19,373 nt of DNA from a virus (lineage: Duplodnaviria; Heunggongvirae; Uroviricota; Caudoviricetes). The first letter of the stretch is position 1; each line of letters begins with the position of its first letter. The DNA lies in the IMG/VR virus record IMGVR_UViG_2617270959_000004; one strand, 5' to 3'. A program made the translations under genes and the position numbers. A model generated the notes under the pieces. It had not been told where the DNA came from. It did no database searches and saw only the letters and a program-made list of their open reading frames with translations. Below are positions 273-694 of the stretch, piece after piece.

Positions 273-694
273 CCTCGCGCATACAACCGGGCAGTGATGT
301 GATTGTCTGCGCTGAAATGGACGAACAGTGGGGCTACGTCGGTGCTAAATCACGTCAGCGCTGGCTGTTTTACGCGTATGACAGGATACGGAGGACGGTT
401 GTGGCGCACGTCTTCGGTGAACGCACTCTGGCCACACTGGAGCGTCTTCTGAGCCTGCTGTCGGCCTTTGAGGTCGTGGTATAGATGACGGATGGCTGGC
501 CGCTGTATGAATCACGCCTGAAGGGAAAGCTGCACGTTATCAGCAAGCGTTACACTCAGCGCATTGAGCGACATAATCTGAATCTGAGACAACATCTGGC
601 AAGGCTGGGACGGAAGTTACTGTCGTTCTCAAAATCGGTGGAGTTGCATGACAAGGTCATCGGGCATTATCTGAACATAAAACACTATCAGTAA
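191..694 (+). pseudogene. insB: IS1 insB reading frame interrupted by an in-frame TAG (amber) at 482-484
   Basis: Two track ORFs (191-484 and 485-694) are in the same frame, separated only by TAG; 97+69 residues plus the stop equal the 167-codon InsB length; the stop sits where remembered InsB has ...[13 protein letters not shown]. Confidence 0.7.
248..254 (+). other. IS1 programmed -1 ribosomal frameshift motif (A6C) for the InsAB' fusion
   Basis: AAAAAAC lies near the end of insA in the insA/insB overlap, as in canonical IS1. Confidence 0.7.

What the first reader, a model, noticed from the sequence alone, without database searches (positions are those of the whole stretch)
482..484. In-frame amber codon inside insB of a divergent IS1 copy
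The insB frame is continuous except for a single TAG at 482-484, at the position where remembered canonical InsB has Trp. This copy therefore probably cannot make full-length InsAB' transposase and would be non-autonomous, mobilisable only in trans or in an amber-suppressor host. The copy also differs from K-12 IS1 at many silent and some coding positions.
Basis: partly seen in the sequence, partly recalled or inferred. Interest (0 to 1): 0.45.

Follow-up and report, generated by a model that had tools for sequence, protein, structure and literature searches.

The report
IS1F copy with known amber stop
The stop codon is real, but it is the standard, already-annotated defect of IS1F, a common E. 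coli insertion sequence that cannot make its own transposase and moves only when another IS1 copy supplies the enzyme.

Summary
Window 1-709 is positions 60-768 of insertion sequence IS1F; the window edge cuts off its left end. It differs from the E. coli K-12 MG1655 IS1F by one base in 709. The TAG at 482-484 is there, in the insB frame, where IS1A and intact close relatives have TGG (Trp98 of InsB). It falls at position 62 of 131 of the Pfam IS1 DDE transposase domain.

The codon is not new and is very unlikely to be a read error. K-12 IS1F carries it, and its insB7 (b4576) is annotated as a pseudogene. NCBI's pipeline marks such copies "programmed frameshift; internal stop". An exact 61-base context with TAG occurs in 2820 complete E. 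coli records.

Published experiments show K-12 IS1F is immobile alone but moves when consensus InsAB' is over-expressed in trans. I also found two TAG-bearing copies in one genome with 9-bp and 8-bp target duplications and intact empty sites elsewhere, so the defective element does move in nature. Intact relatives 4-8 bases away are greatly expanded in Shigella flexneri and could act as helpers.

In this window IS1F abuts the 3' third of a truncated DUF1441 gene, just upstream of a lambdoid prophage terminase gene. Already known; low interest.

The parts
1..709 (+). IS1F insertion sequence, positions 60-768 of the 768-bp element; the left end (59 bp, including the left inverted repeat and the insA start codon) lies outside the window
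   Evidence: Collinear and gap-free with K-12 MG1655 IS1F (NC_000913 4518472-4519239), 1 mismatch in 709. 100% identical over 709 nt to copies in many complete E. coli genomes.
1..272 (+). insA (repressor InsA), lacking only its first 4 bases; otherwise open, stop TAA at 270-272
   Evidence: Translation matches InsA. Pfam Zn_ribbon_InsA and HTH_Tnp_IS1. Window base 97 (IS1F nt 156) gives His34 as in IS1A, where K-12 IS1F has Pro.
248..254 (+). A6C (AAAAAAC) programmed -1 frameshift motif joining insA to insB', intact
   Evidence: Sequence read directly; identical to IS1A over this region.
191..481 (+). 5' part of insB (codons 1-97), with the N-terminal half of the DDE domain
   Evidence: ORF list. 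Pfam DDE_Tnp_IS1 profile positions 1-61 of 131, E=2.4e-30.
482..484 (+). Amber codon TAG = InsB W98* (IS1F nt 541-543; G-to-A transition at nt 542)
   Evidence: TGG in IS1A, IS1X2 and in intact copies at least 99% identical to IS1F.
485..694 (+). 3' part of insB (codons 99-167 plus stop TAA at 692-694), no longer reachable by normal decoding; begins with the ancestral Met99 ATG
   Evidence: ORF list. Pfam DDE_Tnp_IS1 profile positions 63-131 of 131, E=6.7e-36.
687..709 (+). Right terminal inverted repeat of IS1F (reverse complement GGTAATGACTCCAACTTACTGAT)
   Evidence: identical to the K-12 IS1F right repeat.
710..916 (+). 3' remnant (about the last 68 codons) of a prophage DUF1441 gene, cut off by the IS1F end
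   Evidence: Homology to the intact 528-nt DUF1441 gene starts 321 nt into that gene (L005 2180-2707). Pfam DUF1441 profile positions 101-144 of 147.
925..3024 (+). Context: lambda-type terminase large subunit (gpA), first gene of the prophage morphogenesis module that fills the rest of the window
   Evidence: Pfam GpA_ATPase and GpA_nuclease; the portal, ClpP-capsid, tail tube, tape measure and tip attachment protein J genes follow.

Best explanation
This is a copy of IS1F, the divergent 'type IV' IS1 isoform also present in E. coli K-12. A single G-to-A transition turned Trp98 of InsB into an amber codon. Translation of the frameshifted InsAB' transposase therefore stops in the middle of the DDE catalytic domain, and the element cannot transpose on its own. 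Its terminal repeats, insA gene and frameshift signal are intact. It is therefore expected still to make the InsA repressor, and it remains a substrate for InsAB' made by other IS1 copies in the same cell, which can move it in trans. Shown here or in the cited papers: the identity with IS1F, the position of the stop, its wide occurrence, the immobility of K-12 IS1F alone, its mobilisation in trans, and real de novo insertions of TAG-bearing copies. Inferred: that this particular copy is inactive and expresses InsA, and how it reached the prophage.
For: Identity: 708/709 with K-12 IS1F, which has the same TAG and an annotated insB7 pseudogene. PGAP marks identical copies 'programmed frameshift; internal stop'. 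Position: the TAG lies at profile position 62 of 131 of DDE_Tnp_IS1. Frequency: the exact 61-nt TAG context is in 2820 complete E. coli records, and the downstream 69-aa ORF product is in 13,030 index blocks. Experiments: K-12 cells with only IS1B/C/D/F gave no detectable IS1 insertions (PMC12428005); over-expressed consensus InsAB' mobilised IS1F, which made up 44% of 48 events (PMC12903888). Movement in nature: in assembly GCA_048157325.1 three identical TAG copies exist. Two have perfect target duplications, 9 bp in ybhM and 8 bp inside another IS1-family element, and the reconstructed empty sites occur uninterrupted at 100% identity in other genomes. An intact-ORF IS1 (90.6% identical to IS1F) lies about 680 bp from the fec-adjacent copy in that genome. 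Possible helpers: intact TGG copies only 4-8 nt from IS1F are abundant in Shigella flexneri SFBU1023, E. coli ECMA0423 and Mixta spp..
Against: No reads or expression data exist for this copy. The rest of the host genome is unknown, so I cannot say whether a helper IS1 is present. The left end is outside the window, so no target duplication can be checked here. In the one related contig with the same right junction (L143), the left flank is a truncated virK and there is no duplication, so this copy may have reached its place by recombination or deletion rather than by insertion. Low-level amber read-through has not been excluded experimentally. The two 2025 papers never mention the stop codon and do not attribute the immobility of IS1F to it.
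Confidence: 0.9

Rival explanations
1. Sequencing or assembly error: the true codon in this genome is TGG and the copy is an intact IS1F-like element.
For: Intact TGG copies only 4-8 nt away from IS1F exist and are common, and reads cannot be inspected.
Against: The window also carries the two other substitutions that travel with the TAG (nt 677 T giving S143L, and nt 703 T), which nearly all the TGG relatives examined lack. The 709-nt sequence is identical to copies in many independent complete genomes. The TAG context occurs in 2820 records.
Confidence: 0.02
2. The amber codon is leaky: natural read-through, or a supE-type suppressor tRNA, yields enough full-length InsAB' (with another residue at position 98) for rare autonomous transposition.
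For: TAG copies do reach new sites with target duplications. The rest of the reading frame downstream is still open and nearly unchanged, with S143L as the only other IS1F-specific coding change.
Against: Full-length product would need both the rare -1 frameshift and rare read-through. K-12 cells with only non-consensus IS1 copies gave no detectable insertions (PMC12428005). The genome with new insertions also holds an intact IS1 that can explain them. Every other IS1 copy examined that is aligned without indels, down to about 90% nucleotide identity, has TGG at this codon, and it lies three codons before the MTD aspartate.
Confidence: 0.05
3. Split transposase: ribosomes terminating at TAG restart at the adjacent ATG (TAGATG), and the two fragments assemble into an active enzyme.
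For: The ATG follows the stop directly, with a GAGG 11 nt upstream. Gene callers routinely call the 69-aa ORF.
Against: The ATG is the ancestral Met99 codon and the GAGG is also present in intact relatives, so neither is a new feature. The break is inside the catalytic domain. IS1F is immobile without a helper (PMC12428005).
Confidence: 0.02
4. Retained regulator: the defective copy persists because InsA, and perhaps the truncated InsAB' that keeps the DNA-binding domains, dampens transposition of other IS1 copies. This does not exclude the main explanation.
For: insA, its promoter-proximal region and the frameshift site are intact. InsA is the known IS1 repressor and binds the terminal repeats (PMC12428005). 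The same copy is conserved at fixed chromosomal sites across thousands of genomes.
Against: There is no test of selection, because too few substitutions separate TAG copies to measure constraint. K-12 IS1F itself has Pro in place of His in the InsA CSHC zinc-finger motif, which does not suggest constraint on InsA. Persistence at island borders is equally explained by neutrality and hitch-hiking with the fec island.
Confidence: 0.1

Closest known systems
IS1F of E. coli K-12 MG1655 (mobile element at 4518472-4519239; insA7 b4294, insB7 b4576 pseudogene)
   Same: 708 of 709 bases, the same TAG at nt 541-543, and the same terminal repeat, frameshift site and S143L change.
   Different: One base: IS1F nt 156 is A here (InsA His34, as in IS1A) and C in K-12 (Pro34). 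The 156A allele is the commoner one among the complete genomes sampled. The location also differs: next to a prophage terminase here, and between fecI and yjhU in K-12.
Intact Shigella-type IS1 copies at least 99% identical to IS1F (S. flexneri SFBU1023, E. coli ECMA0423, Mixta spp.)
   Same: They differ from IS1F at only 4-8 of 768 positions and nearly all have the same terminal repeats.
   Different: They have TGG at codon 98, Ser143 and C at nt 703. Their reading frames are open and they occur in many copies per genome, so they are the active relatives from which IS1F most likely derives.
Consensus IS1 (IS1A/IS1E of K-12)
   Same: Same 768-bp architecture, insA/insB' overlap, A6C frameshift and DDE transposase. 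Its InsAB' can mobilise IS1F in trans (PMC12903888).
   Different: 90.5% nucleotide identity (73 differences, PMC12428005). Intact insB, autonomously mobile, and slightly different terminal repeats.
IS1X2 (intact isoform, e.g. E. coli ECCHD184)
   Same: InsB sequence around the site is identical except for the stop (…FEVVVWMTDGW…).
   Different: 95.6% nucleotide identity (34 differences) and an open reading frame.

Membership tests
IS1 family insertion sequence | Two overlapping reading frames, insA and insB', joined by a -1 frameshift at an A6C motif | tested here: met
   insA open to 272, insB frame 191-694, AAAAAAC at 248-254.
IS1 family insertion sequence | Protein domains: InsA zinc ribbon and HTH, and the IS1-type DDE transposase domain | tested here: met
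   Pfam Zn_ribbon_InsA, HTH_Tnp_IS1 and DDE_Tnp_IS1. The DDE domain is split into profile positions 1-61 and 63-131.
IS1 family insertion sequence | About 768 bp bounded by imperfect terminal inverted repeats starting GGTAATG/GGTGATG | tested here: inconclusive
   The right repeat is present at 687-709. The left repeat lies outside the window. A related contig with the same right junction (L143) holds the full 768-bp element.
IS1 family insertion sequence | 8- or 9-bp target-site duplication | not testable with these tools
   The left flank is absent from the window, and L143 shows no duplication (virK' on the left, DUF1441' on the right). Other TAG-bearing IS1F copies do have 9- and 8-bp duplications (L132, L134).
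IS1F isoform | Near identity to the K-12 IS1F reference sequence | tested here: met
   708/709, with no gaps.
IS1F isoform | The substitutions that set it apart from its intact closest relatives: nt 542 A (W98*), nt 677 T (S143L), nt 703 T | tested here: met
   All three are present in the window copy.
Autonomous (functional) insertion sequence | An open reading frame for the complete transposase | tested here: not met
   In-frame TAG at 482-484. Orthologous copies are annotated as pseudogenes.

The most novel reading that the evidence does not exclude
The amber-bearing IS1F is not just a dead relic. It may be a successful non-autonomous rider on active IS1 lineages: a full-length element that makes no transposase but is preferentially mobilised by others. 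Its two terminal repeats are more alike than those of consensus IS1, and in one experiment it out-competed three other copies. Some sub-lineages have further changed the frameshift motif from A6C to A7. No published account that I could find links its behaviour to the stop codon.
Probability: 0.25. Interest if true: 0.3.

Novelty: already known. Interest (0 to 1): 0.08.

Why it matters
It matters little beyond correct annotation. This copy should be labelled IS1F with an insB pseudogene, not an unusual new variant. It also marks the truncated left edge of a prophage morphogenesis module. One modest point of general interest emerges. The two recent papers on K-12 IS1 mobility explain the immobility of IS1F only by 'many substitutions'. 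The single amber codon is the simplest cause, and it predicts that a one-base TAG-to-TGG reversion should restore autonomy. The target-duplicated new copies found here show that a nonsense-bearing IS can still spread in natural genomes.

Tried and rejected
1. I looked for the window's own genome to see the left end and any target duplication. No complete E. coli genome in the collection holds the IS1F/DUF1441' junction (the only full-coverage hit, H66, is an unrelated IS1 about 800 bp upstream). A metagenome scan found nothing. One IMG/VR contig (L143) has the junction, but with virK' on the left and no duplication.
2. A look-up of the 62-aa DUF1441 remnant found other genomes where this gene is broken by IS3- or IS66-family elements or by a frameshift, but none with IS1F.
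3. Searches for insB7/b4576 in papers gave only unrelated hits. The paper on the D-D-E motif of IS1 transposase (PMC151954) is not held, so placing the catalytic residues in EMDE, MTDGW and RIERHN rests on my own knowledge.
4. I did not run the large protein searches or a structure prediction, because the identity of the element was settled at the DNA level.
5. I rejected sequencing error, a programmed recoding signal and a split transposase as main explanations (see the rival explanations).

Full report
**Observation**

The window opens inside an IS1 element. Bases 1-709 are collinear, without gaps, with positions 60-768 of IS1F of E. coli K-12 MG1655 (mobile element 4518472-4519239). They differ from it at one base. 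The element's last 23 bases (687-709) are the IS1F right inverted repeat. The left 59 bases, with the left repeat and the insA start codon, lie beyond the window edge.

The insB frame runs from 191 to 694. It is interrupted only by TAG at 482-484, which gives a 97-aa ORF followed directly by a 69-aa ORF. Against K-12 IS1A the change is W98* (…DVVIWMTDGW… versus …EVVV*MTDGW…).

**What the element is**

The copy is 90.7% identical to IS1A: 66 differences in 709 nt, with 30 synonymous and 17 non-synonymous codon differences in insB. This matches the 73 mismatches (90.5%) reported for IS1F in PMC12428005. It is essentially identical to K-12's own IS1F, which has the same TAG. In MG1655, insB7 (b4576) is annotated as a pseudogene.

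Sequences 100% identical to window 1-709 occur in many complete E. coli genomes. NCBI's pipeline labels them [quoted passage not shown]. An exact 61-nt context with TAG occurs in 2820 complete-genome records. The 69-aa ORF downstream of the TAG is indexed in 13,030 blocks of public assemblies. The stop is therefore a fixed, widespread allele, not a private mutation, and a read error is very unlikely.

**Where the stop falls**

Pfam places the 97-aa piece on profile positions 1-61 and the 69-aa piece on positions 63-131 of the 131-position DDE_Tnp_IS1 domain. The stop thus halves the catalytic domain. From my own knowledge of the IS1 D-D-E motif (the paper is not held), the second Asp (MTDGW) and the Glu (RIERHN) lie downstream of the stop.

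The insA gene, with its zinc-ribbon and HTH domains, and the A6C frameshift motif at 248-254 are intact. InsA can therefore still be made.

**Origin of the allele**

A pattern scan of one genome per species returned many IS1 copies that share this context. Among full-length copies, 43 were at least 99% identical to IS1F but carried TGG and open reading frames. They are greatly expanded in Shigella flexneri SFBU1023, E. coli ECMA0423 and two Mixta species.

Compared with these, IS1F is defined by three changes: nt 542 G>A (W98*), nt 677 C>T (S143L) and nt 703 C>T (silent). IS1F is therefore most likely a disabled offshoot of an active lineage whose ends are nearly all identical to its own. Those relatives are obvious potential helpers.

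**How it works**

- In K-12 BW25113, only the consensus copies IS1A and IS1E transposed. A strain retaining only IS1B, C, D and F gave no detectable IS1 insertions (PMC12428005).
- When consensus InsAB' was over-expressed in that strain, the silent copies moved. IS1F accounted for 44% of 48 sequenced insertions (PMC12903888).
- Neither paper mentions the amber codon. It is nevertheless the simplest cause of IS1F's immobility.

I also looked for natural movement. TAG-bearing copies sit in at least seven different flank contexts:

- fecI/yjhU
- fecI/phytase-like region
- virK'/phytase-like region
- mdtM/brnT
- HD'/hchA'
- CPBP'/hydrolase'
- this prophage

Most lack target duplications, as expected for old copies at island borders or deletion end-points.

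In assembly GCA_048157325.1, however, three identical TAG copies exist. Two have perfect duplications: 9 bp in ybhM and 8 bp inside another IS1-family element. The reconstructed empty sites occur uninterrupted at 100% identity in other genomes. An IS1 with open reading frames, 90.6% identical to IS1F, lies about 680 bp from that genome's fec-adjacent copy. This shows genuine transposition of a nonsense-bearing IS1F, most simply by a transposase supplied in trans.

**This copy's setting**

The IS1F right end abuts position 321 of a 528-nt DUF1441 gene. In intact lambdoid prophages this gene lies immediately upstream of the gpA-type terminase large subunit. The rest of the window is the morphogenesis module: terminase, portal, ClpP-capsid, tail tube, tape measure and J.

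No complete E. coli genome in the collection has this junction. One IMG/VR contig does (L143, 2 mismatches in 3442 nt). There the left flank is a truncated virK with no target duplication. The virK'-IS1F junction is common elsewhere. The arrangement is therefore best read as a rearrangement or deletion between IS1F copies, or an assembly join through the repeat, rather than a simple insertion. How this copy arrived remains open.

**Rivals**

- Sequencing error is very unlikely, because the TAG travels with two other IS1F-specific bases that are also present here.
- Amber read-through or a supE host could in principle give traces of full-length protein. This would need both a rare frameshift and rare read-through, and the K-12 data show no autonomous activity.
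- Restart at the ATG that follows the TAG would give two halves of a catalytic domain. Both the ATG and the upstream GAGG are ancestral features.
- A retained role as an InsA donor is possible but untested. K-12's own IS1F has Pro in the InsA CSHC motif, which does not suggest constraint.

**Comparison and verdict**

The element passes every testable criterion for the IS1 family and for the IS1F isoform. It fails the criterion for an autonomous element, an open transposase frame. It is already known and already annotated in the reference genome.

Interest is low. One small residual point remains: the recent experimental literature has not tied IS1F's helper-dependence to this codon, and a one-base reversion experiment would settle it.

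Noticed in passing
window 710-916 (and L005 2180-2707 for the intact gene): IS1F cuts off the first 321 nt of the prophage DUF1441 gene that precedes the terminase large subunit. What follows is a morphogenesis module without an intact copy of that gene, so this is probably a defective prophage.
   Followed up: partly
L143 1-1311 (IMG/VR contig with the same right junction): The left flank of the IS1F is a truncated virK with no target duplication. The same virK'-IS1F junction is common in E. coli, where it is joined to a different right flank (L144). This suggests recombination or deletion between IS1F copies, or an assembly join through the repeat.
   Followed up: partly
L132, L133, L134, L127 (IS1F nt 313; corresponds to window base 254): A sub-lineage of TAG-bearing IS1F has the frameshift motif changed from AAAAAAC to AAAAAAA (InsA Asn to Lys). 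The two copies with proven new insertions belong to it. The window copy keeps A6C.
   Followed up: partly
L148 1442-2209 versus L003 989-1756: At one and the same insertion site (CPBP'/alpha-beta hydrolase'), strain E110019 has the TAG allele, while O157:H7 PV15-279 has TGG at codon 98 but a different stop (E45*, nt 382 G>T). This points to gene conversion between IS1 copies or independent decay of an intact ancestor.
   Followed up: no
window base 97 (IS1F nt 156): The window and most sampled genomes have His34 in the InsA CSHC zinc-finger motif, whereas K-12 IS1F has Pro (CSPC). The reference copy therefore may carry an extra defect in InsA.
   Followed up: no
L137, L140, L141, L139/L142 (around locus position 3983): The same DUF1441 gene is broken in other genomes by IS3-family and IS66-family elements or by a frameshift. 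This gene is repeatedly inactivated.
   Followed up: no
L016, L022, L057, L062, L087, L095, L112: Very short contigs (246-1285 bp) assigned to unrelated taxa (Streptomyces, Archangium, Flagellimonas, Haemophilus, Enhygromyxa and others) carry this IS1 sequence. This is most likely contamination of those assemblies with enterobacterial DNA.
   Followed up: no
L127-L131, L133, L135, L136, L149: IS1F forms a constant left junction with fecI and the fec operon while the right flank varies. The element marks the border of the fec island, and this junction was by far the commonest context among the places returned for the TAG allele.
   Followed up: partly
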